Shown here: one piece after another, positions 1,845-16,612 of the stretch
Numbering within the stretch: the first letter of the stretch is position 1
How the letters are laid out: the number at the start of each line of letters is the position of its first letter
Origin: Alphaproteobacteria bacterium
Lineage (GTDB): Bacteria; Pseudomonadota; Alphaproteobacteria; UBA7887
Assembly: GCA_047517485.1 (NCBI GenBank)
Contig: JAKZSU010000063.1
Location: 1 to 21,835 of the forward strand
Direction: 5' to 3'
DNA length: 21,835 nt
The notes under the pieces: model-generated
Told to the model about the DNA's origin: nothing
What the model saw: the letters and a program-made list of their open reading frames with translations, nothing else
Databases searched by the model: none
Position numbers and translations under genes: made by a program

Positions 1845-1853
1845 AATTCCCCC

Positions 1854-2726
1854 GTGGCCGAAGACGTCGAGTGCATCTGGCCGGCGGGCGCCATTCTCGG
1901 CGAGGGCCCGCTTTGGGTCGCCGACGAAGCGGCGCTCTATTGGGTCGATATCAAGGCGCCGGCGATCCATCGCTATGAGTCGCGGACCCGCGCGCGCGAC
2001 AGCTGGCCGATGCCGGAGCCCATCGGCTGTCTGTGCCGGCGGATGAGCGGTGGCTTCGTCGCCGGATTGAAGAGCGGTTTCGCGTTCCTCGATTCCGATC
2101 TCGGCAACCTCGAGCGGTTCGACGGTCCCGAGACCGATTCATCCGGCAATCGCACCAACGACGGCAAGGTCGACGCCCAAGGCCGGCTGTGGGCCGGAAC
2201 CATGGACGATGCGGAAATCGAAGCGACCGGCGCGCTTTACCGCCTCGACCCGGATCACGGCTGGCAAACCATGGACACCGGTTACGTGATTACCAACGGC
2301 CCGGCCTTCAGTCCCGACGGCAACACGCTCTATCACACCGATACGTTGGCGCGGACGATCTTCGCGTTCGATCTGTCGGACGATGGAAAAATTATGAATA
2401 AACGATCATTCATTAAATTTCCGGATCTACACGGCTATCCCGACGGCATGACCGCCGATGCCGAGGGATACCTCTGGGTGGCCCATTTCGGCGGTTGGCG
2501 GGTAACGCGGTTCGACCCCAACGGCGAGGCGGAACGGGTGATTCGGCTGCCGGTCTCGAATATCACCAGTTGCACCTTCGGCGGGCCGGATACCACGCAG
2601 CTCTTCATCACCACCGCAACCAAGGGCCTGGACGACGCGGCACTCGCTGGCCAACCCTTGGCCGGGGGTTTGTTTGCCGTGGAAACTGGGATCGAAGGGC
2701 TTCCTACCCCCGCCTATGCCGGATGA
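1854..2726 (+). CDS. SMP-30/gluconolactonase/LRE-like sugar lactonase (GTG start)
   Basis: Motifs GEGPLWVADEAALYWVDI, NDGKVDAQGRLWAGTM, ITNGPAFSPDGNTLYHTDT and YPDGMTADAEGYLWVA are typical of the regucalcin/gluconolactonase beta-propeller. It starts 9 nt after the SDR stop. Confidence 0.88.
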   Translation: MAEDVECIWPAGAILGEGPLWVADEAALYWVDIKAPAIHRYESRTRARDSWPMPEPIGCLCRRMSGGFVAGLKSGFAFLDSDLGNLERFDGPETDSSGNRTNDGKVDAQGRLWAGTMDDAEIEATGALYRLDPDHGWQTMDTGYVITNGPAFSPDGNTLYHTDTLARTIFAFDLSDDGKIMNKRSFIKFPDLHGYPDGMTADAEGYLWVAHFGGWRVTRFDPNGEAERVIRLPVSNITSCTFGGPDTTQLFITTATKGLDDAALAGQPLAGGLFAVETGIEGLPTPAYAG

Positions 2727-3598
2727 ATTATTGGTTTGAACGAGACCCGCGCCGATAAGGTTTCGCCCGGCGCGAGCGCCCGCATACTGGTATTCGGCGC
2801 GCCGTCGGCGGCCCGGTTGAAGGCATCGGTCATGTGGCTGACCGGCTCGACACAGAAAAAATCGCCGCCGGGAGGGGCGTACACGACCAACTTTCGCAGC
2901 GCTGTATCCGCCGCGATCTCAAGCGATGCGCCTTCGTCGGGCCACGCGATGCTGGCGCGACCGCTCCAGCTGTCAAATCCATTGTCGATCGCCATGTCGC
3001 GAACTTCGACCCCCGTCGCCAAGTCCCAACTTGGCGGCGGGCGTACCCGCTTGGTCGGCATGACTTCGTCGTCGGTCAACCAAACGGCATCGACATCGGC
3101 GCCGAGCGTCGCGTTCGCGCGCAGCGGAAAATAGGGGTGGAGGCCGAGCCCCGCCGGCATTTTCTCAATCGACAGATTGCGCACCGAGACTTCGATCTCG
3201 AGCGCGCCGACCGAAAGGCGAAATGATTGTCGCGCCTCGTATTCAAACGGCCAGGCATCGGCGGCATGGCGATTGACGAGATCGAGTCGGTCGGCGCCTT
3301 GGTCGGCGATCTGCCACGGCGCTTGCCAGCCGTGGCCGTGGATACTGTGGGGGTGATCGGCGAAATTGAGTGGCAGCGCGATTTCCCGGTCGGCGAAGTG
3401 AAAACGACCGTTTCGTATCCGGTTCGAATAGGGGACTAGCGGAAAGCACGCCGCCGAAAGAGCGTCGGTGCCACTGGCGGCCTTGAACCAATCGATCCGC
3501 CCGGTGCGCGCCTCGGTCCAGAAGGCGGTGACGATCCCGCCAGCATTCGGCGCTACCTCCAGACAAAGGTTCTCAGCGCGTAACGAAATCCGATCCAT
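2714..3598 (-). CDS. Aldose 1-epimerase (galactose mutarotase-like) family protein
   Basis: Motifs HPHSIHGHGWQ, LGLHPYFPL and FFCVEPVSH fit the aldose-epimerase fold signatures. It is convergent with, and overlaps by 13 nt, the lactonase gene. Confidence 0.75.
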   Translation of the reverse strand: MDRISLRAENLCLEVAPNAGGIVTAFWTEARTGRIDWFKAASGTDALSAACFPLVPYSNRIRNGRFHFADREIALPLNFADHPHSIHGHGWQAPWQIADQGADRLDLVNRHAADAWPFEYEARQSFRLSVGALEIEVSVRNLSIEKMPAGLGLHPYFPLRANATLGADVDAVWLTDDEVMPTKRVRPPPSWDLATGVEVRDMAIDNGFDSWSGRASIAWPDEGASLEIAADTALRKLVVYAPPGGDFFCVEPVSHMTDAFNRAADGAPNTSMRALAPGETLSARVSFKPIIHPA

Positions 3599-3607
3599 CG
3601 AGGTGGA

Positions 3608-4078
3608 TCAGAGCAAATCCGAGCATTTTCGCAGTGCCTTGGCGGTCGCGTAATCATAGGCCGTCGCCTCGTCGCCACCGCGCACCTTGCCGGCCGAGAA
3701 CGATACGCCGCCCACCGAGCCGGTCCGAGTACCGCCGCCGCTCACCCGCCCGGAGCCAAACTGCGACTTGGAGGTGCCGCTTTCAGCCAAGGTGAGCTTG
3801 ACCATCACGGTCACCTCGTCGCCCTCGCGGCGGCGATCGGCGACCTCCCAGGTCCAGCCATCGGCGCCATAGCGGTCGTCGAGAAACCGCGCGACATCTT
3901 GGGCACCTTTCGGCACCGGCTGGCTCGCGGCGGCCGGTGCCGCCGACACGGTCGGCGCGGGCGACACGGTCGGCGCGGGCGCGCTGCCGCCGTCAAACAA
4001 GCTGTCGAATTGCTGGCGATTGCGGCTAAGCATGTCGTCGAACGATGACGCGAACCCCTGTTTCGGCGAATTAGTCAT
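3608..4078 (-). CDS. Hypothetical 156-aa protein with an uncharacterised conserved core (paralog of the HyuB N-terminal extension); weak Rad52/Rad22-like beta-hairpin/helix motif
   Basis: ATG overlaps the TGA of the upstream isochorismatase-family gene (ATGA) and it lies 9 nt upstream of the epimerase gene. Blocks DDMLSRNRQQFDSLF, DGWTWEV...VTVMVKLTLAESGTSKSQFGSGRV and ATAYDYATAKALRKCSDLL align with residues 20-140 of the 10392..12671 protein. A Pro/Ala-rich linker contains an 18-bp tandem duplication. Confidence 0.6.
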   Translation of the reverse strand: MTNSPKQGFASSFDDMLSRNRQQFDSLFDGGSAPAPTVSPAPTVSAAPAAASQPVPKGAQDVARFLDDRYGADGWTWEVADRRREGDEVTVMVKLTLAESGTSKSQFGSGRVSGGGTRTGSVGGVSFSAGKVRGGDEATAYDYATAKALRKCSDLL

Positions 4079-4767
4079 GCGACGGCGCTATCCTCTCGGT
4101 TCCACCAACTTTGGAAACCCGCGCCGTCCGCGGCACCGAGCGCGCGCAAATAGGACAGGACTTCGTGGCCGTCGATCACATCGCCATATTTGGCGTCGAT
4201 GTCGAACAGGTTGGCCTCGTGCGGCCCCGCGGCGCGATCGCCGACCGCGTCGCGGACGACGACGGTGCGGTAGCCGTACTGCATCGCATCGATCGCCGAG
4301 GCCCGCACGCAGCCGCTGGTGGTGGCGCCGACGATGACCACCGTATCGACGCCGTGCCCACGCAGGCGGGTGTCGAGGTCGGTGCCGAAAAAGGCGCTGG
4401 CGAAAAATTTCTCGAGCACCGGCTCGCCGCCGAGCGGGCGAATCCGATCATCGATGGCGACGGCGCGCGATCCCCGGACCAGGACCTTCAGCGACGGCAC
4501 CTTCTTGATGAACACGCCGGCGTCGCGCAGATCTTCATAGACCACGGTGGTGAACAGAATGGGGTGGCCGCCGGCGCGAAACGCCGCAAGCAGATCCGCC
4601 GTCACCTTGAGTTCGGACGGGTAATCGCCGCCGAGCGGGCTCGTCGGATCGGTGAAGCCGTTGCTGAAATCGACCACCAGGAACGCCGGCTTGACGCCAA
4701 AGCCCGAGCGCTCGGCGAGACCCTTCCGCTGGTAATCCTCGAACGTGCTTTGCCGCGACTGGTCCAT
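4075..4767 (-). CDS. Isochorismatase-family cysteine hydrolase (N-carbamoylsarcosine amidase / cysteine amidohydrolase-like)
   Basis: Motifs AFLVVDFSNGF (catalytic Asp region) and VVIVGATTSGCVRASAIDA (catalytic Cys) match the isochorismatase/CSHase fold. GGAGG sits 6 nt upstream of the ATG at 4767. The longer track ORF (to 5007) is an Arg-rich N-terminal artefact. Confidence 0.8.
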   Translation of the reverse strand: MDQSRQSTFEDYQRKGLAERSGFGVKPAFLVVDFSNGFTDPTSPLGGDYPSELKVTADLLAAFRAGGHPILFTTVVYEDLRDAGVFIKKVPSLKVLVRGSRAVAIDDRIRPLGGEPVLEKFFASAFFGTDLDTRLRGHGVDTVVIVGATTSGCVRASAIDAMQYGYRTVVVRDAVGDRAAGPHEANLFDIDAKYGDVIDGHEVLSYLRALGAADGAGFQSWWNREDSAVA

Positions 4768-4904
4768 GACCACCCTCCAACAACGATGAAACCCGCGGTG
4801 ACGATACCCAAGCCGCGACCGGCGATCAATGCCGGCCCTTGCCGGACGTGGGTGAGAAGACGCAAGATGCGGCCGGACGACAAAAGATCGACGGAGGATA
4901 CGCG

Positions 4905-5942
4905 ATGAGCGACGACAAGGATGGGAAATATTCCCCTGGCGCCGGACGGCTTGGTCGAGGCCCGAGCTACCGGCCGAGCTCGCTGATCGGCGGCGGCGGC
5001 ACGGCAACCAGCACCGAACGGACAGCGGGCGCGGCGGCCGGCGGCAAGAAAGAAATCCTCTGCGCCTTTGGCGTCGATGTCGACGCGGTCGCCGGCTGGC
5101 TGGGCTCCTACGGCGGCGAGGATTCGCCGTGCGACATTTCGCGCGGCCTGTTCTCCGGCGAGGTCGGGGTGCCGCGTCTGGTCAGACTGTTCGATCGCTT
5201 GGATCTGCAAACCTCGTGGTTCATTCCCGGCCACTCGATCGAGACCTTTCCCGATCAATGCCGCATGGTGGTCGACGCCGGTCACGAAATCGGCATGCAC
5301 GGCTACAGCCACGAAAATCCGATCGCCATGACCCGGGTCCAGGAAGAGGCGATCATGGACAAGTGCATCGACCTGATCGAAAAGTTGAGCGGCCGGCGGC
5401 CCACCGGCTATGTCGCGCCGTGGTGGGAATTCAGCGCGGTGACCAATGAGTTGTTGCTCAGCCGCGGCATCAAATACGACCACAGCTTGATGAACAATGA
5501 CTTCCATCCGTTCTATGTGCGGGTCGGCGACAGTTGGACGCCGATCGATTACTCGCAGCATCCCGACGTCTGGATGAAACCGCTGGTGCGCGGCGAGGAG
5601 ACCGATCTCATCGACATCCCCGGGTCGTGGTATCTCGACGATCTGCCGCCGATGATGTTTATCAAATCGGCGCCGAACAGTTTCGGCTTCGTCAATCCAC
5701 GCGACATCGAGGAATTGTGGCGCGACCAGTTCGACTGGGTGTACCGCGAGTACGACTACGCGGTGTTCACCATGACCATTCACCCCGATGTCTCCGGCCG
5801 ACCGCAGGTCCTGTTGATGCTTGAGCGGCTGATCGAATATATCCGCGGCCACGGCGGCGTGCGCTTCACCACGTTCGACGATATCGCCGACGATTTCGCC
5901 CGCCGCCATCCGCGCGAGGGGGCCAGCGTGGCCGCCGAATAG
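4905..5942 (+). CDS. Polysaccharide deacetylase (NodB-homology) family hydrolase, possibly a cyclic-amide/allantoin-type amidohydrolase
   Basis: Motifs [11 protein letters not shown] (Asp-x-Asp motif 1) and [13 protein letters not shown] (His-His metal motif) are present. GGAGGA sits 8 nt before the ATG at 4905. Confidence 0.85.
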
Positions 5943-5952
5943 GATTCTCGCA

Positions 5953-6273
5953 ATGTGCAGTCTGTGCGGCATGATCGGTGGACGGGGGCATTGGACCGAG
6001 AGCGGTAGCCACCCGGAAGCTTTCCGGCGCGAGACGCCGAGTACGCGTGGGCGCGAACGCCAGCACCGCACCCGGCAGGTCAATCGGGTGCTCGCGCACT
6101 ATGGCTTGGTGGTGTCCGACTTTTCAGGCTCGGGTTATGTGCTGCGCACCCGCACCGGCCGCAGCGCGATGATCGCCAATATGACCGAGCTGTGGGCCGA
6201 GGCCGAGCGCCTGACCGGGCGCGCCTGCGACCCGCTGGATGGCGCGCTGCTCACCGCGCTCGAAAGCTCGTAA
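5953..6273 (+). CDS. Hypothetical 106-aa protein with N-terminal CSLCG (CxxC) motif, in operon with COG0523 GTPase
   Basis: GC3-rich coding frame. It starts 10 nt after the deacetylase stop and ends 8 nt before the COG0523 ATG. No recognisable family. Confidence 0.45.
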   Translation: MCSLCGMIGGRGHWTESGSHPEAFRRETPSTRGRERQHRTRQVNRVLAHYGLVVSDFSGSGYVLRTRTGRSAMIANMTELWAEAERLTGRACDPLDGALLTALESS

Positions 6274-6281
6274 GGCCGGTC

Positions 6282-7274
6282 ATGGGCGCCTACGCCGACC
6301 TCATTCCCATTCACGTGCTGACCGGCTTTCTCGGTAGCGGCAAGACCACCGTGTTGAAGCGTTTGCTGCAATCGCCGCGCCTCCAAGATACCGCGGTCCT
6401 GGTCAACGAATTCGGCGAGGTCGGTCTCGATCACCATCTCATCGAGCACGCCAGCGAGAGCACGCTACTGCTCGACAATGGCTGCCTGTGCTGCGCCGTG
6501 CGTGGCGATCTGCAAGCCAGCTTGCGCGATCTGCTGGACCGCCGCGAACGCGGCGAGATCCCGCGCTTCGAACGCGTCGTCATCGAGACCTCGGGGCTCG
6601 CCGATCCAGTGCCGATCGCCTACACCGTGCTCGCCGATCCGCTGGTGCAACATCACTACCGCCTCGGCAATATTTTGACCGTCGTCGACGCGGTGAACAC
6701 GCTGGCCGGCCTGTCGCGCTTCCCGGAATCGGAAAAGCAGGTGTTGACCGCCGATCATCTGCTGATCAGCAAACTCGACCTCGCCGACGCCGAGGACCCG
6801 CGCGCGCTGCTCGCCCGGCTCAATCCGTCGGCCCGGATCAGCGACGCATCGGACCTCGATCCGGCGGCGCTGCTCGCCGACGATCTCTATACCGAGGCGG
6901 GCAAGAAGCGCGCGGTGGATACCTGGCGGCAAGCACCGACCGAGCATAGCCACGACAGCGCGGTGACCTCGTTCTGCCTGACCTTCGACGCGCCGCTCGA
7001 TTGGAGCGCCTTCGGCATCTGGATGACCATGCTGCTCAACCGCCACGGCGAAAAGGTTCTGCGCATAAAAGGATTGCTGAATGTCGCGGGGCTCAGCGCC
7101 CCGGTGCTGGTCAACGGCGTGCAGCACATAGTCCATCCGCCGACCCACCTCGACGCCTGGCCGGACGAGGACCGGCGGTCACGGCTGATTTTTATTACTC
7201 GCGATTTGCAGCGCGAACCGATCGAGGCGTCGTTGGCGGCTTTCAATGCGTTGGCGAATAGGCAGGCCGCTTAA
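6282..7274 (+). CDS. COG0523 / CobW-family metallochaperone GTPase (G3E family)
   Basis: Walker A GFLGSGKTT, signature DNGCLCCAV (GCxCC metal-binding motif), a switch region, and a CobW C-terminal domain. The real start is probably MGAYADLIPIHVLTG at 6282. Confidence 0.9.
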   Translation: MGAYADLIPIHVLTGFLGSGKTTVLKRLLQSPRLQDTAVLVNEFGEVGLDHHLIEHASESTLLLDNGCLCCAVRGDLQASLRDLLDRRERGEIPRFERVVIETSGLADPVPIAYTVLADPLVQHHYRLGNILTVVDAVNTLAGLSRFPESEKQVLTADHLLISKLDLADAEDPRALLARLNPSARISDASDLDPAALLADDLYTEAGKKRAVDTWRQAPTEHSHDSAVTSFCLTFDAPLDWSAFGIWMTMLLNRHGEKVLRIKGLLNVAGLSAPVLVNGVQHIVHPPTHLDAWPDEDRRSRLIFITRDLQREPIEASLAAFNALANRQAA

Positions 7275-7277
7275 GCG

Positions 7278-7808
7278 TTATTCCGCCGGCCCGCGCGTAA
7301 TGTCGCCGCGCCCCGGCGCCCGTTTCGGCCGCCAGCCGGAGCGGAAGGCGCGCACGACGTGGTGCAGCAGGTAGAACGCGACGGCGAGGATCACCAGCAA
7401 GACGATCGTCAGCAGGTGGCTGCCGAAGCCGCGGTCGACGGTCTCGGTTTGGCCGATCAAGGTCTCGCTCAGCATGACGATCGCCTGCAGGGTGGCGCCG
7501 GCGCAGAAGATGACCGCCACCAGGATCGAGATCTGCAGGGTGTCGAAAATCAATTCCTCGGCATTCAGTTCGCCGGCGCTGCGGAAAATCTTCGCCCGAA
7601 AGGTCTGCCAATGGGCAATCGCGTAGCCGACGACGCCGACCAGCGAGGCGAACCAGAAAATCAGATTGTCGGATTTGATGTGGGTGATGCCGTCGACGAC
7701 AAAGGCCTCGAACGGCTGATAAAAGTAGAGAAATATCAAGCCGATGATGATCGCGATGACCGTCATCCAAAACCGCGGCGTGCGCGCGCTCAAAGGCTTT
7801 TCGTCCAT
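7278..7808 (-). CDS. Hypothetical integral membrane protein (about 4 TM), function unknown
   Basis: 176-aa frame with hydrophobic helices (WMTVIAIIIGLIFLYFY, LIFWFASLVGVVGYAI, ISILVAVIFCAGATL, LLTIVLLVILAVAFYLL). The overlapping frames are Arg/Asp-rich shadow ORFs. Confidence 0.5.
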   Translation of the reverse strand: MDEKPLSARTPRFWMTVIAIIIGLIFLYFYQPFEAFVVDGITHIKSDNLIFWFASLVGVVGYAIAHWQTFRAKIFRSAGELNAEELIFDTLQISILVAVIFCAGATLQAIVMLSETLIGQTETVDRGFGSHLLTIVLLVILAVAFYLLHHVVRAFRSGWRPKRAPGRGDITRGPAE

Positions 7809-8337: not shown

Positions 8338-10395
8338 ATGGCTAGTCGTCTCGGGATTGATGTCGGAGGAACGTTTACCGACCTGCTGTTGTTCAACGAC
8401 GACAGCGGGGCCATTCAGCTGCTCAAGACGCCGTCCACCCCCGAGGATCAGTCGATCGGCATTCTCCAGGGCATCGAGAAAATTCTCGCCGAGAGCGGCA
8501 CCTCGCCGGCGGCGATCCAGTCGCTGCTGCATGGCACCACGGTATCGACCAACATCGTGCTCGAGGAGAAGGGCGCCAAGGTCGGCTTGATCGTCACCGA
8601 GAATTTCGAGCAAATCCTGCATATGGCGCGCTCGCAAACCCCGGGACCGCTGGCCGGCTGGATGATCATGATCAAGCCCGATCCGCTGGCCGATCTCGAG
8701 GTTACCCGCGGGGTACCCGAACGCGTCGATTCGCGCGGCCAAGTGGTGACCCCGCTCGACGAAAGCGCGGTCCGCACAGCCGTCGGCGAGCTCGCCGCCG
8801 CTGGGGTCGAATCGATCACCGTGTCGCTGCTGCACGCCTATGCCAACCCGGCGCATGAAGAGCGCATACGGGCGATTATCCGCGACATGGGTGTCGACGT
8901 GCCGATCTCGCTGTCGTCGGAAATCCTGCCCGAGTTTCGCGAGTACGAGCGCACGCTGGTGGCGGTGATGAACGCCTATGTTCGCCCGGCGATGCGGCGC
9001 TATCTCGCCAATTTCGAGGACAAGCTGGCGAATATTCAGTTTTCGCCGCATGTCAGCATCATTCGTTCGGACGGTGGGGTGATGAGCGTCGAGCGGGCCT
9101 CGGAATCGCCGGTCCACACCATGCTGTCGGGCCCCGCCGGCGGGGTCTCCGGCGCCGCCTTCGTCGCCGGTCTCGCGGGCCATCCGGAAGCGCTCGGCTT
9201 CGACATGGGCGGCACCTCGACCGATGTTTCGCTGATCCGCGACGGCAAGCCGACGATCTCGCGCCAGACCTCGCTGGGCTATTACCCGATCAAGATTCCG
9301 TCGGTCGAAGTCCATAGCGTCGGCGCCGGCGGCGGCTCGATCGCCCATGTGCCGATGACCGGGGCGCTGAGAGTCGGCCCGGAAAGCGCCGGCGCGGTGC
9401 CGGGGCCGGCGTGCTACGGCAAGGGCGGCGATCAGCCGACGGTGACCGACGCCAACGTGATGCTCGGCCGCCTGCCGCCGGCGCTGCTCGGCGGCGAGAT
9501 GCGGCTCGACGTCAAGGCGGCCGAGGACGCGGTACAGAAAATCGCCCGCGCGATCGGCCTCGATACCTATCAGGCAGCGCAAGGCATTCTCGATATCGTC
9601 AATGAGAACATGTTCGGCGCGCTGCGCCTGCTGACGGTGCAAAAAGGCTTGGATTCGCGCGATTTCGCGCTGGTCGCGTTCGGCGGCGCCGGACCGATGC
9701 ACGGCAATGCGCTGGGTATTCTCGCCGGCTGCTTCCCGGTGATCGTACCGCCGACACCGGGCGTCCTCTCGGCGCTCGGCTTTCTCTATTCCGACGTCAA
9801 GAACGAGTTCGCCCAGACCTTCATCCGCAATCTCGATGACGTGCAAGGCGAGCAAATCCGCGACGTGCTGTCGGGTCTCGGCCAGCAAGCGCGCGCTTGG
9901 CTGCAGGAAGAAGGCATCGAGGAAGCGCGCCAGACCCTGCATTACGAGGTCGACGTGCGCTACTTCCGCCAAGGCTATGAATTTTCGCTCGACGTCGGCC
10001 TCGAGGGCCTGGCGAACGGCGGTCTCGGCGACATCGCCGACCGCTTTGGCGCCGCCCACGAGCGCTTGTACGGCTTCCGCCTCGAGCAGCCGGTGGAATT
10101 GGTCAATTTGCGCTCGGTCGGCACCGGTGCCGTGGCCAAGGTACCGTCGCCCAAATTCGAGCGCGGCGAGGCGGACACCTCCGCCGCCGTGGTTGAACAG
10201 CACCGAGTGTTTTTCGATGGCAACTTCCTGACCGCGAACATCTATGATCGCAGCCTACTCACCGCCGGGAACCGGGTGACCGGGCCGGCGGTGATCATGC
10301 AGAAAGACACCACGACGGTGGTCCATCCGGGCCACGTCGGCGAAGTCGACGAGTATCTGAACATCTTGATTTGGCCGGAGACCGGACGCCAATGA
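8338..10395 (+). CDS. hyuA: Hydantoinase/oxoprolinase family subunit A (ATP-dependent hydantoinase / N-methylhydantoinase A-like)
   Basis: N-terminal GIDVGGTFTDLLL (actin-like ATPase fold motif of HyuA/OplA). The 685-aa length fits the family. The stop overlaps the hyuB start (ATGA). Confidence 0.9.
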   Translation: MASRLGIDVGGTFTDLLLFNDDSGAIQLLKTPSTPEDQSIGILQGIEKILAESGTSPAAIQSLLHGTTVSTNIVLEEKGAKVGLIVTENFEQILHMARSQTPGPLAGWMIMIKPDPLADLEVTRGVPERVDSRGQVVTPLDESAVRTAVGELAAAGVESITVSLLHAYANPAHEERIRAIIRDMGVDVPISLSSEILPEFREYERTLVAVMNAYVRPAMRRYLANFEDKLANIQFSPHVSIIRSDGGVMSVERASESPVHTMLSGPAGGVSGAAFVAGLAGHPEALGFDMGGTSTDVSLIRDGKPTISRQTSLGYYPIKIPSVEVHSVGAGGGSIAHVPMTGALRVGPESAGAVPGPACYGKGGDQPTVTDANVMLGRLPPALLGGEMRLDVKAAEDAVQKIARAIGLDTYQAAQGILDIVNENMFGALRLLTVQKGLDSRDFALVAFGGAGPMHGNALGILAGCFPVIVPPTPGVLSALGFLYSDVKNEFAQTFIRNLDDVQGEQIRDVLSGLGQQARAWLQEEGIEEARQTLHYEVDVRYFRQGYEFSLDVGLEGLANGGLGDIADRFGAAHERLYGFRLEQPVELVNLRSVGTGAVAKVPSPKFERGEADTSAAVVEQHRVFFDGNFLTANIYDRSLLTAGNRVTGPAVIMQKDTTTVVHPGHVGEVDEYLNILIWPETGRQ

Positions 10396-12671
10396 GTGAA
10401 TTCGACCGATCGCGCGTAGCGACATCGCTTGACGACCTGCTGAGGTCGAGCCGCGACCAGTTCGAGGCGGTGGTGGCGGGCCAGAAGACCGAAATCGGCC
10501 TGGTCAACGTCAGCCACGTCCCGGTGACCGCCGATCAGTTGGCCTCGGCCAGCCTGGCCTCCGAGGGCAACGGCGCGGGGGACGTGACCGCGACTTTGAA
10601 CGCACGCTTTGGCGACGACTGGTCGACGGAGATCGTCGAACATAAGGTCGAGCGTGGCCGGGTCACGGTGCTGTGCAAACTCACCGTCGGCGACACCAGC
10701 AAGATGCAATTCGGCAGCGTGCGGGTGAACGGCGACGAAGGCGCGGCGTTGCAAATGGCGGCCGACGACGCGCTCGACAAATGCGCCGCGATGTTCAACG
10801 GCACTGGCAACGGGGCGGCACCCGCCGATACCAAGGCGCCAGTGGCGCGGCCGGACGCCGAGCCCATTGCCGCCGCCGCGCCAGCGGCACGCCAGACGTC
10901 CGGCGCGCTCGATCCGATTACCTTGGACCTGATCGAGAACGCGCTGCGCAACGCGCGCCACGAAATGGACGCGGTGCTGTTCCGCTCGGCGATGTCGCCG
11001 GTGATCCGCGAGCAGCATGACGAGTTCCCGATGATCACCGACCGCCAGGGACGGATGATCGTCGGCCAATTCGGCTCCTACGTCCCGGAGATGCTGCGCA
11101 GTTTCGAAATCACTTTCGAGCCCGGCGACGTGCTGCTGCAGAGCGATCCCTACAAATGCGGCGGCGCGATCAGCCATATCAACGACTGGATGGTGCTGGT
11201 CCCCATCTTCCATCAGGGCGAACTGGTCGGCTTCAGCTCGATGTTCGGCCACATGATGGATGTCGGCGGCTGGGTGCCAGGCAGCATGCCGACCGCGGCG
11301 TCGTCGATCTTCGGCGAGGGCATCCGCATTCCGCCGATCAAGATCTACGAGCGTGGCGTGCTCAACAAGGGCGCGCTCGACTTGTTGATGAACAACACCC
11401 GCACCCCGGAGATGAATTACAGCGACTTGATGGCGATCGTCGCCGGTAGCCGCGCCGGCGAGAAGCGGGTGATCGAGATTTGCGACCGTTTCGGCGCCGA
11501 AACCTACAATAAGGCGTGCGACGCGTTGTTGGAGCGCACCAACCGCGCGATGCGGACGCTGATCACCCAGAACCTGCCCGAGGAGCCGCAATCGTTCGAG
11601 GATTACGTCGACGATGACGGCTGCGGCAACGGCCCGTTCAAAATGAAATTGACGGTGTGGCGCGAGGGCGATCACGCCTATTTCGACTGGACCGGAACCT
11701 CGCCGCAAGCCGAGGGACCGATCAATTTCTATCTCCACGATGGCATGTTCAAAATGTTCATCGGGGTCTACATGATCATGGTGTTCGATCCGCAGATCCT
11801 GTTCAACGACGGGTTCTACGACCTCATCCACGTAACCATGCCGGACGGCTCATTGGTGCATCCGACGTTCCCCGCGGCACTGGGGTGTCGCACCCACGCG
11901 TTGGCGCGCCAGTTCGATGTCCTGGGCGGCGCGCTGAGCAAGAACGCGCCGGAGATGGCGACCGCGGCGGGGTACGGATCGAGCCCGCATTTCCTCTACT
12001 CGGGAACCGATTCCGACGGCCGCGCCTTCCAGCTGATGGAAATTCTTTACGGCGGCATCCCGGGACGGCCGATCGGCGACGGCATGGACGGCCATTCGTG
12101 GTGGCCGCTGTTCGAAAACATTCCCACCGAATATCTCGAAAGCTATTACCCGATGCGGGTCGAGAGCTACGCGTCTATTCGCGATTCCGGCGGCGCCGGA
12201 CTGCATCGCGGCGGCAACGGGGTCGACAAGGTCTATCTGCTGCTCGAGGCCGGAGAAATCTCAATTCATGACGACCGGCACCTGACCCAGCCGTGGGGTA
12301 TTCTCGGCGGCAAACCGGGCGAATGTTCGGAGAAGTGGCTGGAGCGCGCCGATGGATCGCGCGAACCGCTGCCGTCGAAAATCGACAGTGTGAAAGTGGT
12401 CAAGGGCGACCGGATCATTTTCCGCACCGCCGGCGGCGGCGGCTGGGGCGATCCGTTGCAGCGCGATACCCAAGCCGTGCGCAACGATGTCGCGCGTAAA
12501 CTGGTGAGCGCCGCCGCGGCACACAACGAATACGGCGTGGTGCTCGGCGGCGACGCTATCACCGTGGACGCGCGCGCGACCGAGGATGCGCGCGCGAGCA
12601 TGCGTGCCAACCGCGCGACGCAGCCGCTGTTCGATTTCGGCGAGCGACCTTCGGGAGTACGTTCGAGTTAA
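10392..12671 (+). CDS. hyuB: Hydantoinase B/oxoprolinase family subunit B with an unusual about 175-aa N-terminal extension carrying an uncharacterised conserved core domain
   Basis: From about nt 10908 onward (LDPITLDLIENALRNARHEMDAVLFRSAMSPVIREQHDEFPMITD...) the sequence is canonical HyuB. Residues 1-175 are in frame with no stop and no internal start. They are paralogous to ORF 3608..4078 and joined by an Ala/Pro-rich linker. Confidence 0.88.
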   Translation: MSEFDRSRVATSLDDLLRSSRDQFEAVVAGQKTEIGLVNVSHVPVTADQLASASLASEGNGAGDVTATLNARFGDDWSTEIVEHKVERGRVTVLCKLTVGDTSKMQFGSVRVNGDEGAALQMAADDALDKCAAMFNGTGNGAAPADTKAPVARPDAEPIAAAAPAARQTSGALDPITLDLIENALRNARHEMDAVLFRSAMSPVIREQHDEFPMITDRQGRMIVGQFGSYVPEMLRSFEITFEPGDVLLQSDPYKCGGAISHINDWMVLVPIFHQGELVGFSSMFGHMMDVGGWVPGSMPTAASSIFGEGIRIPPIKIYERGVLNKGALDLLMNNTRTPEMNYSDLMAIVAGSRAGEKRVIEICDRFGAETYNKACDALLERTNRAMRTLITQNLPEEPQSFEDYVDDDGCGNGPFKMKLTVWREGDHAYFDWTGTSPQAEGPINFYLHDGMFKMFIGVYMIMVFDPQILFNDGFYDLIHVTMPDGSLVHPTFPAALGCRTHALARQFDVLGGALSKNAPEMATAAGYGSSPHFLYSGTDSDGRAFQLMEILYGGIPGRPIGDGMDGHSWWPLFENIPTEYLESYYPMRVESYASIRDSGGAGLHRGGNGVDKVYLLLEAGEISIHDDRHLTQPWGILGGKPGECSEKWLERADGSREPLPSKIDSVKVVKGDRIIFRTAGGGGWGDPLQRDTQAVRNDVARKLVSAAAAHNEYGVVLGGDAITVDARATEDARASMRANRATQPLFDFGERPSGVRSS

Positions 12672-12774: not shown

Positions 12775-15519
12775 ATGGTCGAATTCTGGCTAACGCTCCT
12801 CATTGTCGTCATCGTCGTCATCGCCATCGTCTACATACTCTCGATTTGGGTATACAAGCGCGCGCCGGCGAACATGGCGTTCATCCGCACCGGTTTTTTG
12901 GGGACGAAAGTGTGCGTTGGACAGGGCGCGGTGGTGCTGCCGGTATTCCACGAGATCTCGTGGGTGAGCTTGGAAACCATCAAGCTGATCATCAGCCGGG
13001 CACGCGACCAGGCGGTGTTGACGTCGGATAAGATCCGTATCGATCTCGGGGTCGAGCTTTATGCCCATGTCGGCCGCGGCAACGACGAAGTGCTGACCGC
13101 GAGCCGCAGCCTGGGCGACAAGACCTTCGATCCGGACAAGGTGCGCAATCTGCTCGAAGCCAAGGTGGTAAGCGCGCTGCGCAGCTATGCCGCCACCAAG
13201 ACCCTGAACGAGCTGCACGAAAATCGCGATATCTTCGCCAAGGCGATCAGGGAGAGCGTGGTCGAGAGCTTTCACGCCAATGGTCTTATGCTCGAGGAAG
13301 TCACTGTCGTCGCGCTCGAGCAGACCGCTAAGGATTATTTCAAGACCGACAATGTGTTCGACGCCGAAGGTCTGAAAATCATCACCGAGATCACCTCGGA
13401 CGCGCGCCGCAAGGTGCATGCGACGGAAAAGCGCACCACGGTGGCAATTCGCCAGAAGGATCTCGACACCCAGCTCGAGCTGCTCGAGATCGAGCGCAAG
13501 GAAAGCTTCGCCCGCGCCAGCCAAGACATGGAAGTGTCGAATGAGCAGGCCTTGCGGCTCGGCGAAAAGCAGGTCTACGTGCTCGATCAGCGGATGTCGG
13601 TGGAACAGCGCGAGATCGAGAATGAAAAGGAACTCGAACGCTTGCGCACCGAGCGCGAAGTGGCGATCACCGAGGAAGCGCAAAAGCGCGAGGCGATGGA
13701 GATCCGCAAGGAGCTCGCGCTCGAGGCCGAGCGGCGGCAGAAGGAAATCACCCTGATCGCCAAGGCCAAGGAAGAGGAGCTCGCCAATATCGAGCGCCGG
13801 CTGTCGTTGGAGAAGGCCGAGAAGGATCGCGAGATCGAACTGGTTGCCAAGGCGGAGCAGGAAGAACTCGCCGAGATCAGCCGCGAACTGGCGCGCGAGA
13901 GCGCCGAAAAGCAACGTCAGATCGAATTGATCGGCAAGGAAAAAGAGCGCCAGCAAGCCGATATCCAGCGCGCCACCGCGGTCCTGGCGGAGGAAGAGAA
14001 GGCGCGCGACGAACGCCACAAAGTCGCCGAGGAAACCGTCGTCGCGATGCGCAAGCGCGCGCTCGACACCAGGCTCGCGGTGCTCGACATCGAAAAGGAA
14101 GAGGAATTCGCCGCCACCACCCAGGAGCGCGAAGTCTCCGATCAGCGGGCGCGCGAGCTCGCCGAGACCCAGCAGTTCCTGCTCGACCAGCGCTGGCAGG
14201 TGCAAAAGGCGGAAATCGACAAGGATCTCGCGGTGGAGAAGGCGCGGATCGTCAAGGAGGCCGAAGTCGCCGACCAGATGAAGGTGCGCGAGGCCGCCGA
14301 GGTCAGACGCGCGCTCGCCCGCGAGCAGGAAGAGCGCGACCGCGAGATCGCCCTGGTCGCCAAGGACGAGGAACTGCGCCGCGCCGAGGTGCGCCAAGTC
14401 AAGGCGATCGAGCTCGAGGAGCAGGACCGCGAAATCGAGCTGATCGAAAAAGAGAAAGAGCGCGAGACCGCGGATATCCGGCGCTTCCTCGCCCGTGAAC
14501 TGGAAGAACGCGAACGCGAAATCGCTTTGGTGCAGAAGACCCAACAACTCGAGGCCGCCGAAGTCGAACGTCTAAAGACCACGGCCGAGAAAGAGCGCGG
14601 CCAGCACGGCGTCGAGTCGGTACGCGTGGTCGCCGATGCCGAGCGCACCAAGGAGATCGAGCGGATCCGCGCCGAGCAGGAGGCCGTGGCGTCAACCATC
14701 GCCGAGGAAGCCAAGGCGGAAGTCTCGAAGATGCACGTGGTCACCCAGTCGGAAGCGCGCAATCAGGCGGCCGCCGAAGAGGCCAAGGCGACGATGACCC
14801 GGGCCAAGGCGCAGAGCGATGCGCAGAAGATCGGCGCCGAGGGTATCGAGCGCGAGGCCGGCGCCCAGGGTCGCGCGGAAATGGAGATCGACGCGCTGCG
14901 CGCCGCCAACACCCAACGGCTGTTGGAGGCGGAGGCGGCGGGCATCGAGGCCAAGGCCGACGCGCTGAAGAAATATAACGACGCGGCGACTTTCCTCGAA
15001 CTCGCCAAGCTCCATATCGAGGCCGAGCGCGATATCCACATCGACCAGGCGAAGGCGATGGGCAATGCGCTGCAGAACGCCCAGATCCGCATGTATGGCG
15101 GCGGCGGCGGCGATGGCGACGGTGGGACGATCGACACCATCCGCGGCCTGTTCACCCAGGGCTTCGGTCTTGGCGAGGTGTTGGAGGGAGTCGCGCAGTC
15201 GCTCCCCGAGGGGCTGAAACAACGCTTCGCCGCCAACGGCATACGCGGCCTGTTCGGCCGGCCCTATGGCTCGGGCAGCCTCAAGGAGGCCTTCGATCAG
15301 CTCAAGGCGCTGGTCGAACAAAGCATGCGCAGCCGCAAGGCCCGCGAGATTCCGCTGTCCGAGGCGTTGCCCAAACTTATCGAGCAGGCCGGCGACGACG
15401 ACGCGATGCGCCTCGCGGTCGACATGTTGAAGGACTTCAACGCCGAAGGCACCTTCGACGACGTGCCGTTCGAAACGGTGTGGACCTTGCTTCAAGCGGC
15501 CGCGCGCAACATCGACTGA
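12775..15519 (+). CDS. Flotillin/SPFH (band 7, YqiK-like) membrane protein with expanded E/R/K-rich coiled-coil repeat region
   Basis: N-terminal TM (LTLLIVVIVVIAIVYILSIWVY), then an SPFH domain (IRTGFLGTKVCVGQGAVVLPVFHEISWVSLETIKL...). It has a flotillin-type C-terminal EA-repeat region. The middle has repeated REIELVAK/REIALVAK/REIELIEK units. At 914 aa it is much longer than typical YqiK. Confidence 0.85.
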   Translation: MVEFWLTLLIVVIVVIAIVYILSIWVYKRAPANMAFIRTGFLGTKVCVGQGAVVLPVFHEISWVSLETIKLIISRARDQAVLTSDKIRIDLGVELYAHVGRGNDEVLTASRSLGDKTFDPDKVRNLLEAKVVSALRSYAATKTLNELHENRDIFAKAIRESVVESFHANGLMLEEVTVVALEQTAKDYFKTDNVFDAEGLKIITEITSDARRKVHATEKRTTVAIRQKDLDTQLELLEIERKESFARASQDMEVSNEQALRLGEKQVYVLDQRMSVEQREIENEKELERLRTEREVAITEEAQKREAMEIRKELALEAERRQKEITLIAKAKEEELANIERRLSLEKAEKDREIELVAKAEQEELAEISRELARESAEKQRQIELIGKEKERQQADIQRATAVLAEEEKARDERHKVAEETVVAMRKRALDTRLAVLDIEKEEEFAATTQEREVSDQRARELAETQQFLLDQRWQVQKAEIDKDLAVEKARIVKEAEVADQMKVREAAEVRRALAREQEERDREIALVAKDEELRRAEVRQVKAIELEEQDREIELIEKEKERETADIRRFLARELEEREREIALVQKTQQLEAAEVERLKTTAEKERGQHGVESVRVVADAERTKEIERIRAEQEAVASTIAEEAKAEVSKMHVVTQSEARNQAAAEEAKATMTRAKAQSDAQKIGAEGIEREAGAQGRAEMEIDALRAANTQRLLEAEAAGIEAKADALKKYNDAATFLELAKLHIEAERDIHIDQAKAMGNALQNAQIRMYGGGGGDGDGGTIDTIRGLFTQGFGLGEVLEGVAQSLPEGLKQRFAANGIRGLFGRPYGSGSLKEAFDQLKALVEQSMRSRKAREIPLSEALPKLIEQAGDDDAMRLAVDMLKDFNAEGTFDDVPFETVWTLLQAAARNID

Positions 15520-15529
15520 GGCCGGTCGC

Positions 15530-16612
15530 GTGCCCGACTATGACGTGGTCCTGGAAGGCGTCGACAAGACGTTCGACGGCGACGTGCGCGCGGTTATCGA
15601 TTTTAACGCGGAGATCGAGCGCGGCGAATTCGTCGCCATGCTCGGGCCCTCGGGCTGCGGCAAAACCACCACATTGCGGATGATCGGCGGTCTGGAAGAG
15701 GTCACCGCCGGACGCATACTCATCGCCGGTAAGGACGTGACCGACCTGCCGCCGTCGCTTCGCGAGACGTCGATGATGTTCCAGAGTTTCGCGCTGTTCC
15801 CCCACCGTACGGTGTTCCAGAACGTCGAATTCAGCATGAAGATGAAAGGCATCTCGCGCGAGGCGCGGGCGAAGCCGGTGTGGGATATGCTGGAAAAGGT
15901 CAGTCTCGAGCCGCTCGCATCGCGCTACCCGCAGGATCTGAGCGGCGGCCAGCAACAACGTGTCGCCTTGGCGCGCGCATTGATCAGCAATCCCACCGTT
16001 CTTTTGCTCGACGAGCCGCTGGGCTCACTGGATTATAATCTTCGCCAGACAATGATCATCGAACTCAAGAAAATCCAGCGCGAACTCAGTTTGACGTTCA
16101 TAATGGTCACCCACAGCCAAGAAGAAGCGATGTCGATGGCCGACAAAGTCATCGTGATGAGCGATGCGATGATTCAACAAACCGGAACATCGCGGAAAAT
16201 ATACGAAAGCCCGCGCACCCGCTTCGTCGCTGAATTTATTGGTAACAACAACCTGTTTACCGGAATCATCCGTTCGCGTAGTGGCAGCATCGTTATAATC
16301 GAGGTCGCCGACCACTTGTGCTATGTCGCCGCGCCGGAAAAAGGGCGGCGTGTCACGCTTGGCGAGGAAGTCGCCTTCTCGGTGCGTGCCGATGTCATGC
16401 ACACCGGCGAGCAAGCCGATATGGCCAACCGGATCGAGGGGCGCTACCTCACTACCGAGTTCAGGGGATCGTTGGAAACCGACGTGTTCGAGCTGACGCC
16501 GGGACATTTCGTCCGCGTCGAACAGCATCGTAACGTCTCCGACCAAATGTACGCGAGCGGCGACCGCGAAGTCATTTGCTGGCCGGCCGAGTCCGGCGTG
16601 CTGCTCGAATAG
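15530..16612 (+). CDS. ABC transporter ATP-binding protein, PotA/polyamine-type importer ATPase with C-terminal TOBE-like domain (GTG start)
   Basis: Walker A GPSGCGKTT, Q-loop, signature LSGGQQQRVALARAL, and Walker B LLLDEPLGSLD. It starts 8 nt after the flotillin stop. Confidence 0.9.
   Translation: MPDYDVVLEGVDKTFDGDVRAVIDFNAEIERGEFVAMLGPSGCGKTTTLRMIGGLEEVTAGRILIAGKDVTDLPPSLRETSMMFQSFALFPHRTVFQNVEFSMKMKGISREARAKPVWDMLEKVSLEPLASRYPQDLSGGQQQRVALARALISNPTVLLLDEPLGSLDYNLRQTMIIELKKIQRELSLTFIMVTHSQEEAMSMADKVIVMSDAMIQQTGTSRKIYESPRTRFVAEFIGNNNLFTGIIRSRSGSIVIIEVADHLCYVAAPEKGRRVTLGEEVAFSVRADVMHTGEQADMANRIEGRYLTTEFRGSLETDVFELTPGHFVRVEQHRNVSDQMYASGDREVICWPAESGVLLE

What the first reader, a model, noticed from the sequence alone, without database searches (positions are those of the whole stretch)
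10392..10920. HyuB carries an in-frame 175-aa N-terminal extension with an uncharacterised conserved core domain that has a standalone paralog in the same window
Hydantoinase B/oxoprolinase subunits normally begin at the DPITLE...EM motif. Here that motif starts at about residue 175. The hyuB ATG is the one overlapping the hyuA stop (ATGA at 10392-10395), so the extension is translated as part of HyuB. There is no stop or plausible internal start before the core. The extension aligns block by block with the 156-aa ORF at 3608..4078:
- SLDDLLRSSRDQFEAVV versus SFDDMLSRNRQQFDSLF
- DDWSTEIVEHKVERGRVTVLCKLTVGDTSKMQFGSVRV versus DGWTWEVADRRREGDEVTVMVKLTLAESGTSKSQFGSGRV
- AALQMAADDALDKCAAMF versus ATAYDYATAKALRKCSDLL
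Both copies have Pro/Ala-rich linkers. The core pattern is GW-x-x-E[IV], then a beta-hairpin V-x-V-x-[LC]-K-L-T ... S-[KS]-x-Q-F-G-S-x-R-V, then a helix A...A..AL[RD]KC. It is reminiscent of the Rad52/Rad22 N-terminal signature (GWS..[IV] ... VRVTLkDGtyhEDiGyG ... AvTDALKRalr.FG). That resemblance is weak and could be coincidental. A DNA-annealing fold fused to a metabolic ATPase would be very unusual. The domain is more likely a pathway-specific accessory module of unknown function, such as scaffolding, regulation or substrate delivery.
Basis: partly seen in the sequence, partly recalled or inferred. Interest (0 to 1): 0.8.

Follow-up and report, generated by a model that had tools for sequence, protein, structure and literature searches.

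The report
Rad52-fold module fused to hydantoinase HyuB
A metabolic enzyme subunit (hydantoinase HyuB) in a group of uncultured soil and marine Alphaproteobacteria carries a conserved N-terminal module with the fold of the DNA-annealing protein Rad52, and a free-standing copy sits next to the next enzyme of the pathway, so a DNA-repair fold seems to have been reused here, probably as a protein scaffold.

Summary
hyuB (10392-12671, 759 aa) starts at the ATG that overlaps the hyuA stop. The Hydantoinase_B domain begins only at residue 174. Residues 1-173 are paralogous to the 156-aa ORF at 3608-4078(-) (BLASTP E = 9e-15).

The fusion is not an artefact. The exact 759-aa protein occurs on 8 contigs. 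Of 44 related species genomes, 36 have an uninterrupted 747-774-aa ORF, and 3 more are open to the contig end.

The Rad52 DNA-binding residues and hairpin are mostly absent, and the core is acidic. The context is metabolic: the standalone copy always follows an N-carbamoylsarcosine-amidase-like gene, and the fused copy sits on an N-methylhydantoinase-like HyuB followed by a flotillin gene.

The most likely role is a self-assembling scaffold or tether that links two consecutive enzymes. This is inferred, not shown. I rate it a new variant of a known fold family.

The parts
10392..12671 (+). hyuB, a single 759-aa ORF made of the N-terminal module plus the Hydantoinase_B core. Its start ATG overlaps the hyuA stop (ATGA).
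   Evidence: The exact protein is on 8 contigs. An uninterrupted ORF is present in 36 of 44 related genomes.
10410..10490 (+). N-terminal amphipathic helix of the module (residues 7-33). Conserved motif: S-x-[FL]-D-[DE]-[ML]-L-x-x-[NS]-[RK]-x-x-[FL]-[DE]-x-L.
   Evidence: The AF2 helix spans residues 7-33, pLDDT about 64. In an 86-sequence alignment F13, D14, L17 and R21 are conserved in 77-97% of members. The motif occurs only twice in the six-frame translation of the window.
10491..10577 (+). Disordered linker 1 (residues 34-62).
   Evidence: pLDDT is below 50 over most of it (residues 31-46 and 48-62 are the low-confidence segments). Length and sequence vary among homologues.
10578..10796 (+). 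Rad52/SSAP-fold core (residues 63-135): helix 63-73, strands 77-87, 90-99 and 102-111, helix 116-135.
10797..10910 (+). Disordered Pro/Ala-rich linker 2 (residues 136-173), joining the module to the HyuB core.
   Evidence: pLDDT is below 50. No detectable conservation.
10911..12671 (+). HyuB catalytic core (Hydantoinase_B/oxoprolinase).
   Evidence: Pfam PF02538, E = 1e-149, residues 174-688. The best solved relative is an N-methylhydantoinase, 7hk5, E = 5.7e-69. JGI names cluster members 'N-methylhydantoinase B'.
3608..4078 (-). Standalone 156-aa paralog of the module: helix 8-28, linker, Rad52-fold core 60-155 with an extra Gly-rich beta-hairpin at 118-129. Its ATG overlaps the stop of the upstream amidase gene (ATGA).
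4075..4767 (-). Isochorismatase-family hydrolase, N-carbamoylsarcosine-amidase-like. The true start is probably Met81 of the long ORF 4075-5007. It is translationally coupled to the paralog.
   Evidence: Pfam Isochorismatase. Best solved relatives are N-carbamoylsarcosine amidohydrolases: 26st_A E = 1.2e-65 and 1nba E = 2.6e-37. It sits directly upstream of the paralog in all 16 metagenome loci and in most genome loci.
8338..10395 (+). hyuA (Hydantoinase_A-type subunit), translationally coupled to hyuB.
   Evidence: NCBIfam CapA-like, E = 8e-160, below the equivalog cut-off.
12775..15519 (+). Flotillin-like SPFH/Band_7 protein of 914 aa with a long coiled coil. It lies directly downstream of hyuB in the related clusters.
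   Evidence: Pfam Band_7 at residues 36-181. Found after hyuB in 41 of 44 genome loci.
7278..7808 (-). Conserved 176-aa multi-pass membrane protein of the cluster, function unknown.
   Evidence: No Pfam hit. Present in 41 of 44 loci at about 58% identity.
4839..7274 (+). Cluster context: a polysaccharide-deacetylase-family enzyme (4839-5942), a conserved 106-aa ORF (5953-6273) and a CobW-type GTPase (6192-7274).
15530..16612 (+). ABC-transporter ATPase gene, directly after the flotillin gene.
   Evidence: Pfam ABC_tran. Conserved position in 40 of 44 loci.

Best explanation
Residues 1-173 of HyuB form a real, conserved, lineage-specific module. It consists of an amphipathic docking helix, a flexible linker, a divergent Rad52/SSAP-fold core (alpha-beta-beta-beta-alpha) and a second flexible linker, joined to an ATP-dependent N-methylhydantoinase-like beta subunit. 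A free-standing paralog of the same module is translationally coupled to the gene of the next enzyme in such a pathway, an N-carbamoylsarcosine-amidase-like hydrolase.

Shown: the fusion, the paralogy, the fold assignment, the loss of the Rad52 DNA-binding signature, and the invariant metabolic gene context.

Inferred: the Rad52-fold cores keep the superfamily's habit of assembling into rings or filaments. Together with the shared N-terminal helix, they would then act as a protein scaffold or tether rather than a DNA annealer. The scaffold would cluster HyuAB with the amidase so that the ring-opened N-carbamoyl intermediate is passed on directly. It may sit next to the flotillin and ABC-transporter proteins encoded just downstream.
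For: Fusion and paralogy.

Fold:
- The two AF2 models have core pLDDT of about 85 and about 90.
- The top 10 Foldseek hits are all RAD52, E from 7e-4.
- hhalign against a 30-sequence Rad52 alignment gives E of 6e-5 and 1e-4, with family positions F73, G74 and W77 on RAD52 F79, G80 and W84 and family G108 on RAD52 G125. Continuing that register into the last helix by eye puts the family's helix alanines on RAD52 A142 and A146.
- Rad52_Rad22 is the only Pfam family hit by several members: 6 of 17 and 6 of 86, best E = 0.002.

Not a DNA annealer:
- There is no counterpart of the R55/Y65 hairpin.
- The K152 equivalent is mostly Ala, and the R156 equivalent is mostly Glu, Ala or Asp.
- The core has median pI 5.6 and charge -2, against pI 8.6 and charge +2 for the same region of Rad52.
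- No recombination genes occur in the cluster.

Link to two consecutive enzymes:
- HyuB's best solved relative is an N-methylhydantoinase, and the amidase's best is an N-carbamoylsarcosine amidohydrolase.
- Both module genes start in an ATGA overlap with the upstream enzyme gene.
- The standalone copy follows the amidase gene in 16 of 16 metagenome loci.
- The exhaustive search found the family in two main forms, fused to HyuB or standalone, plus one 347-aa isochorismatase-module protein (P0152).

Purifying selection: the core is 68% identical across 44 species, while the linkers are not conserved.

Tether-like build: the helix and core are separated by disordered linkers.
Against: - Oligomerisation was not tested, because the tools offer no multimer prediction. 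The scaffold role is an inference from what Rad52-fold proteins usually do.
- The sequence evidence for homology is modest. hhalign probability is only 56-64%, Pfam scores are below the gathering cut-off (12.9 against 20.3 bits), and a family HMM does not retrieve RAD52 from PDB sequences.
- Some members have a basic core (21 of 86 have pI above 8), and the R153-equivalent position is Lys or Arg in about 60%. Nucleic-acid binding is therefore not ruled out.
- The standalone paralog is not physically fused to the amidase.
- In a few loci (L012, L016, L025, L059) only one of the two modules lies within the stretch fetched.
- The substrates of the enzymes are inferred from similarity only. NCBIfam equivalog cut-offs are not reached.
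Confidence: 0.5

Rival explanations
1. The module still binds nucleic acid (ssDNA or RNA). It could tether HyuAB and the amidase partner to the nucleoid or to their own mRNA, for example for autoregulation or co-translational assembly, or it could keep some annealing activity.
For: - The closest structures are all ssDNA-annealing proteins, and the next-best fold is the dsRNA-binding domain.
- The R153-equivalent position is Lys or Arg in about 60% of members, and position 121 is Arg in 45%.
- 21 of 86 cores have pI above 8.
- The standalone subfamily has an Arg-rich strand preceding the beta1-beta2 turn (ERRREGDE).
Against: - The hairpin that carries R55 and Y65 is missing.
- The K152 and R156 equivalents are not basic.
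- The median core charge is -2, and the window's fused copy has pI 4.7.
- No nuclease or recombination partner is nearby, and the context is strictly catabolic in 60 loci.
Confidence: 0.15
2. The resemblance to Rad52 is convergent. The core is an unrelated small alpha-beta-beta-beta-alpha domain that acts as a ligand-sensing or regulatory domain of the pathway (for example allosteric control by substrate or product), or as an assembly chaperone, and does not form a multimeric scaffold.
For: - hhalign probability is below 65%.
- Pfam hits are below threshold.
- Highly conserved polar residues (R72, E80, K96, K104, Q106, E116) could line a ligand site.
Against: - The sequence register matches Rad52's structural invariants: F79, G80, W84, G125, A142, A146, L151, F158.
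- Of 24,736 Pfam models, only Rad52_Rad22 recurs.
Confidence: 0.15
3. The module is mainly a targeting device. Its conserved N-terminal helix would dock HyuAB and the paralog (with the amidase) onto the flotillin-like SPFH assembly or the conserved 176-aa membrane protein, placing the pathway next to the ABC importer.
For: - The flotillin gene follows hyuB directly, and an ABC ATPase gene follows it, in 40-41 of 44 genomes.
- The helix motif is the best-conserved part of both paralogs and is separated from the core by a disordered linker, as in known targeting peptides.
Against: - The motif is found only on the two Rad52-fold modules and never on other cluster proteins, so it may belong to the fold (an alpha1 equivalent) rather than being a portable tag.
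- No interaction data exist.
- L059 has the amidase and paralog without a flotillin gene within 8 kb.
Confidence: 0.15
4. The fusion is an assembly or sequencing artefact, and the module is really a small separate gene between hyuA and hyuB.
For: Several database proteins of 150-217 aa look standalone. Gene callers split the region in L001-L005.
Against: - Those proteins are truncated, or carry frameshifted tails that read into the HyuB core in the +1 frame.
- The loci that split it also have frameshifts in hyuA, hyuB and other genes.
- 36 of 44 species genomes, including the short-read assemblies long enough to hold the whole gene, have one uninterrupted ORF.
- The exact 759-aa protein recurs on 8 contigs.
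Confidence: 0.02

Closest known systems
Rad52 / Rad22 / Mgm101 N-terminal annealing domain (Rad52 SSAP superfamily, Pfam PF04098; fold definition in PMC9870868)
   Same: - It has the three most conserved fold elements: a three-stranded antiparallel sheet, helix alpha3 packed across the sheet, and the preceding helix alpha2.
- These are the best structural matches.
- It shares the structural sequence motifs FG..W, the Gly after strand 3, and A...A...AL.[KR]....[FL] in the last helix.
   Different: - There is no beta-hairpin or alpha1 in the Rad52 position. The paralog has a hairpin inserted elsewhere.
- The DNA-binding residues R55, Y65, K152 and R156, and the HED motif, are not conserved.
- The core is acidic rather than basic.
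- It scores below the Pfam threshold.
- It is fused to, or coupled with, metabolic enzymes instead of recombination partners.
Phage Rad52-like SSAPs (Sak / DUF1071, Red-beta, Erf)
   Different: They are weaker matches than eukaryotic Rad52 and Mgm101. Phage SSAPs sit next to exonuclease or recombination genes and bind ssDNA. This family occurs only in a catabolic cluster. PHROG hits are marginal and go to families of unknown function.
HyuA/HyuB ATP-dependent hydantoinases (N-methylhydantoinase, caprolactamase, oxoprolinase, acetone/acetophenone carboxylase family)
   Same: Residues 174-759 are a full-length Hydantoinase_B subunit, and a cognate HyuA is encoded upstream.
   Different: Canonical HyuB proteins start at the DPIT.. 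motif (profile position 1; 6yra_B residue 5). The 173-aa module belongs to no described member and is confined to one lineage.
Terminal targeting helices on flexible linkers (microcompartment encapsulation peptides, encapsulin cargo-loading peptides). Comparison from general knowledge, not tested here.
   Same: A short conserved amphipathic helix at a terminus, joined by a poorly conserved Pro/Ala-rich linker to the rest of the protein.
   Different: The cluster has no shell or encapsulin genes. The helix is always attached to the Rad52-fold core and is not found on other enzymes.

Membership tests
Rad52 SSAP superfamily (fold definition of PMC9870868) | Antiparallel three-stranded beta-sheet with helix alpha3 packed across it | tested here: met
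   AF2 models: strands 77-87, 90-99 and 102-111 with helix 116-135; strands 75-85, 88-97 and 103-111 with helix 133-155. RAD52 superposes at rmsd 1.3 Å over 83 residues.
Rad52 SSAP superfamily (fold definition of PMC9870868) | Helix alpha2 preceding the sheet and packing with alpha3 | tested here: met
   Helix 63-73 and helix 60-70. It carries the L..R[FY]G motif, which aligns to Rad52 LANEMFG.
Rad52 SSAP superfamily (fold definition of PMC9870868) | Beta-hairpin and helix alpha1 N-terminal to alpha2 (variable elements in the superfamily) | tested here: not met
   The region before the core helix is disordered (pLDDT below 50) and has no hairpin. The paralog has a hairpin at 118-129, but it lies between strand 3 and the last helix. 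The N-terminal helix could be an alpha1 equivalent, but this is unproven.
Rad52 SSAP superfamily | Basic ssDNA-binding groove (human R55, Y65, K152, R153, R156; residue roles from established Rad52 literature, from memory) | tested here: not met
   R55 and Y65 have no counterpart. The K152 equivalent is Ala in 44 of 86. The R153 equivalent is Lys or Arg in 52 of 86. The R156 equivalent is Glu, Ala or Asp in 52 of 86. Core median pI is 5.6, against 8.6 for Rad52.
Rad52 SSAP superfamily | Assembly into rings or helical filaments | not testable with these tools
   Only single-chain prediction was available.
Rad52 SSAP superfamily | ssDNA binding and annealing activity | not testable with these tools
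   This needs biochemistry.
Pfam PF04098 Rad52_Rad22 | Score at or above the curated gathering threshold (20.3 bits) | tested here: not met
   The paralog scores 12.9 bits, E = 0.1. The best family member has E = 0.002. Pairwise hhalign E is 6e-5 to 1e-4, probability 56-64%.
Hydantoinase B / oxoprolinase (Pfam PF02538) | Full-length match above the gathering threshold | tested here: met
   499.8 bits, E = 1e-149, residues 174-688 on profile positions 1-519.
N-methylhydantoinase / N-carbamoylsarcosine amidase pathway (creatinine-type catabolism) | HyuA and HyuB, plus an isochorismatase-family amidase most similar to characterised enzymes of that pathway | tested here: inconclusive
   The best solved relatives are an N-methylhydantoinase (E = 5.7e-69) and N-carbamoylsarcosine amidohydrolases (E = 1.2e-65 and 2.6e-37). 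NCBIfam equivalog cut-offs for related enzymes are not reached. The substrates are unknown.
Flotillin / SPFH | Band_7 domain followed by a long coiled coil (gene downstream of hyuB) | tested here: met
   Band_7 E = 2.3e-12 at residues 36-181. The rest of the 914-aa protein is rich in Glu, Ala, Arg and Lys.

The most novel reading that the evidence does not exclude
The Rad52/SSAP fold, so far known only from DNA-annealing proteins, has been repurposed in a clade of uncultured Alphaproteobacteria as a nucleic-acid-independent, ring-forming protein scaffold. One copy is fused to HyuB and one is partnered with the downstream amidase. They would co-assemble, using the shared N-terminal helix, into a multi-enzyme metabolon for a hydantoin- or creatinine-type pathway, organised at a flotillin platform next to its ABC importer.
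Probability: 0.3. Interest if true: 0.8.

Novelty: new variant of a known kind. Interest (0 to 1): 0.66.

Why it matters
Rad52-superfamily proteins are treated as dedicated DNA-annealing machines. A conserved, selected family with this fold that lacks the DNA-binding signature, and that occurs only fused to or coupled with two consecutive catabolic enzymes, would be the first case I could find of the fold being used outside nucleic-acid metabolism. It would also give a natural, genetically compact scaffold for enzyme clustering.

The finding defines an uncharacterised domain family: 418 cluster representatives, with no Pfam or NCBIfam model. It also defines a tightly conserved gene cluster (amidase-module, deacetylase, CobW, membrane protein, HyuA, module-HyuB, flotillin, ABC ATPase) in abundant but uncultured soil and marine Alphaproteobacteria. 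The link between a flotillin and a soluble ATP-dependent hydantoinase is unexplained and can be tested.

Tried and rejected
- Single-sequence and profile HMM searches of PDB sequences with the module found nothing meaningful and did not retrieve RAD52. Only fold comparison and profile-profile comparison see the relationship.
- NCBIfam has no family for the module.
- PHROGs gave only marginal hits to families of unknown function.
- hhalign against a single RAD52 sequence was uninformative. It needed a Rad52 alignment.
- The afdb50 fold library was unavailable.
A narrower alignment worked.
- The idea that the module is normally a separate gene was rejected after reading the protein tails and frames.
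- The idea that the N-terminal helix is a portable tag on other cluster proteins was rejected, because the motif occurs only on the two modules.
- The 176-aa membrane protein was considered as an NfeD-type flotillin partner. It has no Pfam hit and no soluble domain.
- Full-text searches for Rad52 with hydantoinase, flotillin with hydantoinase, and Rad52-like scaffold found no prior description. A review of the Rad52 superfamily mentions no metabolic fusions.
- The promoter and terminator scans were at background level.

Full report
**1. The observation**

The window encodes hyuA (8338-10395) and hyuB (10392-12671) on the + strand. The hyuB ATG overlaps the hyuA stop as ATGA. HyuB is 759 aa. 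Pfam Hydantoinase_B matches residues 174-688 from profile position 1 (E = 1e-149). A solved hydantoinase B chain aligns from its residue 5 to the first residue of this core. Residues 1-173 are therefore an extra N-terminal segment.

**2. Is the fusion real?**

A first homology search returned mostly proteins of 150-217 aa, which suggested a separate gene. Their sequences show otherwise. Many are cut by contig ends while reading into the HyuB core (…LDTVSLDLIENALRN). Others carry Arg-rich tails that are the +1 frame of that same stretch. The loci that split the gene are noisy long-read assemblies, most of which also have hyuA, hyuB or other genes in several frames.

A scan of one genome per species found 44 loci, all MAGs of Alphaproteobacteria, Xanthobacteraceae or 'Rhodospirillaceae':
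- 36 have one uninterrupted ORF of 747-774 aa.
- 3 are open to the contig end.
- 5 are frameshifted.

The exact 759-aa protein of the window lies on 8 contigs. More than 10 cluster members of 759-762 aa come from ENA, JGI, NCBI and Logan assemblies. An artefact is excluded.

**3. Anatomy of the module**

An exhaustive profile search found 418 cluster representatives (E of 1e-3 or better). Apart from one 347-aa protein (P0152) in which an isochorismatase domain reads into the module, they have only two architectures:
- the module fused to HyuB;
- a standalone protein of about 140-195 aa that ends with the core's last helix (…AL[AR]KCAxxL).

All members share three features:
- an N-terminal amphipathic helix with the motif S-x-F-D-[DE]-[ML]-L-x-x-N-R-x-x-[FL]-D-x-L (F13, D14 and L17 are conserved in at least 92% of 86 sequences);
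- a Pro/Ala-rich linker of variable length;
- a core with conserved L69, R72, [FY]73, G74, W77, E80, V93, C95, [KR]96, L97, K104, Q106, F107, G108, A110, E116, A119, A123, A127, L128 and C131.

AlphaFold2, run without templates, gave these results:
- Fused copy: helix 7-33 (pLDDT about 64), a disordered linker, then helix 63-73, strands 77-87, 90-99 and 102-111, and helix 116-135 (pLDDT 82-89 over residues 71-130), then a disordered linker.
- Paralog, with an 86-sequence alignment: the same core at pLDDT about 90, plus an extra Gly-rich hairpin at 118-129.

Across the 44 species the core is 68% identical. For comparison, the HyuB core is 80%, HyuA 75% and flotillin 61%. The linkers are not detectably conserved. 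The module is under purifying selection.

**4. What fold is it?**

- Foldseek: the top ten hits are all human RAD52 (E from 7e-4).
- Pfam: Rad52_Rad22 is the only family hit by several members (6 of 17 and 6 of 86, best E = 0.002), always below the gathering threshold.
- hhalign: I built a Rad52 alignment from a search seeded with the human RAD52 N-terminal domain. Against this alignment hhalign gives E = 6e-5 (A2) and 1e-4 (A1), probability 56-64%.
- Register: the hhalign alignment puts family F73, G74 and W77 on RAD52 F79, G80 and W84, and family G108 on RAD52 G125. Continuing that register into the last helix by eye puts family A119, A123, L128 and F135 on RAD52 A142, A146, L151 and F158.

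By the published fold definition (PMC9870868) the module has the three universally conserved elements: the sheet, alpha3 and alpha2. It lacks the variable hairpin and alpha1 in their usual place.

I conclude with about 80% confidence that it is a divergent member of the Rad52 SSAP fold superfamily. It is not a member of Pfam PF04098 by that family's threshold.

**5. Does it look like a DNA annealer?**

No.
- The hairpin that carries R55 and Y65 is absent.
- The K152 equivalent is mostly Ala.
- The R156 equivalent is mostly Glu, Ala or Asp.
- Only the R153 equivalent is often Lys or Arg, in about 60% of members.
- The core has median pI 5.6 and charge -2. The window's fused copy has pI 4.7. The same region of Rad52 has pI 8.6 and charge +2.

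About a quarter of members are basic, so nucleic-acid binding is not excluded.

**6. Context**

The cluster is strongly syntenic in 44 genome loci and 16 metagenome loci. Its order is:
- isochorismatase-family hydrolase plus standalone module (- strand);
- polysaccharide-deacetylase-family enzyme;
- a conserved ORF of about 106 aa;
- CobW GTPase;
- a 176-aa membrane protein (- strand);
- HyuA;
- module-HyuB;
- a flotillin-like protein of 850-1080 aa;
- an ABC ATPase.

The hydrolase's best solved relatives are N-carbamoylsarcosine amidohydrolases (E = 1.2e-65 and 2.6e-37). HyuB's best is an N-methylhydantoinase (E = 5.7e-69), and JGI names cluster members that way. In the creatinine/N-methylhydantoin pathway these two enzymes act consecutively. 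This is established biochemistry, and the substrates here are not known.

Both module genes begin in an ATGA overlap with the upstream enzyme gene: hyuA to module-hyuB, and amidase to module. In all 16 metagenome loci the standalone module directly follows the amidase gene. The helix motif occurs nowhere else in the window.

**7. Mechanism**

Shown: a tether-like build of helix, linker, Rad52-fold core and linker, attached covalently to HyuB and encoded in 1:1 coupling with the amidase.

Inferred: the cores assemble into rings or filaments, as Rad52-fold proteins generally do. Together with the shared helix they would cluster HyuAB with the amidase, and perhaps place them at the flotillin/ABC-transporter site.

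Rivals:
- residual nucleic-acid binding;
- a convergent small regulatory domain;
- a pure flotillin-targeting role.

None could be tested, because only single-chain prediction was available.

**8. Novelty**

No Pfam or NCBIfam family covers the module. Full-text searches found no description of a Rad52-fold domain on a hydantoinase or with a flotillin. I rate it a new variant of a known kind: the Rad52 SSAP fold in a non-recombination, enzyme-fused context. It is of real interest to people working on the Rad52 superfamily, enzyme scaffolding and SPFH proteins. The functional claim still rests on inference.

Noticed in passing
window 12775-15519 (+): A 914-aa flotillin-like protein. The Band_7 domain covers only residues 36-181 and is followed by a very long coiled coil rich in Glu, Ala, Arg and Lys. 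In 41 of 44 related genomes this gene directly follows hyuB and is itself followed by an ABC ATPase gene. This is an unusual partnership for a flotillin, and no NfeD-type gene was seen.
   Followed up: partly
window 5953-6273 (+): A 106-aa ORF (MCSLCGMIGG…) between the deacetylase and cobW genes. It has no Pfam hit but is conserved in 35 of 44 related loci at about 54% identity. It implies that cobW really starts near 6282 rather than at the GTG at 6192.
   Followed up: partly
window 7278-7808 (-): A 176-aa protein with about four predicted membrane helices and no Pfam hit. It is conserved (about 58% identity) at the same position, divergent from hyuA, in 41 of 44 related loci.
   Followed up: partly
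window 4075-5007 (-): The mechanical ORF of the isochorismatase-family gene is 310 aa, but its first 80 codons are Arg/Ser-rich and not conserved. Homologues start at the Met at 4767 (MDQSRQ…). The stop of this gene overlaps the paralog's ATG (ATGA at 4075-4078), mirroring the hyuA/hyuB junction.
   Followed up: yes
L004 1-2691, L022 216-4059, L032 237-4075 and most other related loci: Most relatives carry a second, divergent HyuA/HyuB pair (about 38% and 32% identity) next to the standalone module. That second HyuB has no N-terminal module and is called at about 710 aa. In the window this position is occupied by aldose-1-epimerase, gluconolactonase (SGL) and SDR genes (1077-3598).
   Followed up: partly
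L005 19787-20888: ERF-family and YqaJ-family (phage recombination) genes lie about 7 kb downstream of the cluster in one related contig. This is probably an unrelated prophage, and it is not seen in other loci.
   Followed up: no
window 4839-5942 (+): The polysaccharide-deacetylase-family protein is strikingly similar to the Helicobacter pylori 'peptidoglycan deacetylase' structure 3qbu (E = 1.9e-151 over 291 residues). This is much closer than to PuuE allantoinase.
   Followed up: no
P0152 (347 aa, from the representative search): One database protein reads from an isochorismatase domain straight into the standalone-type module. It is either a true amidase-module fusion or a read-through. If real, it strengthens the amidase-module link.
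   Followed up: no
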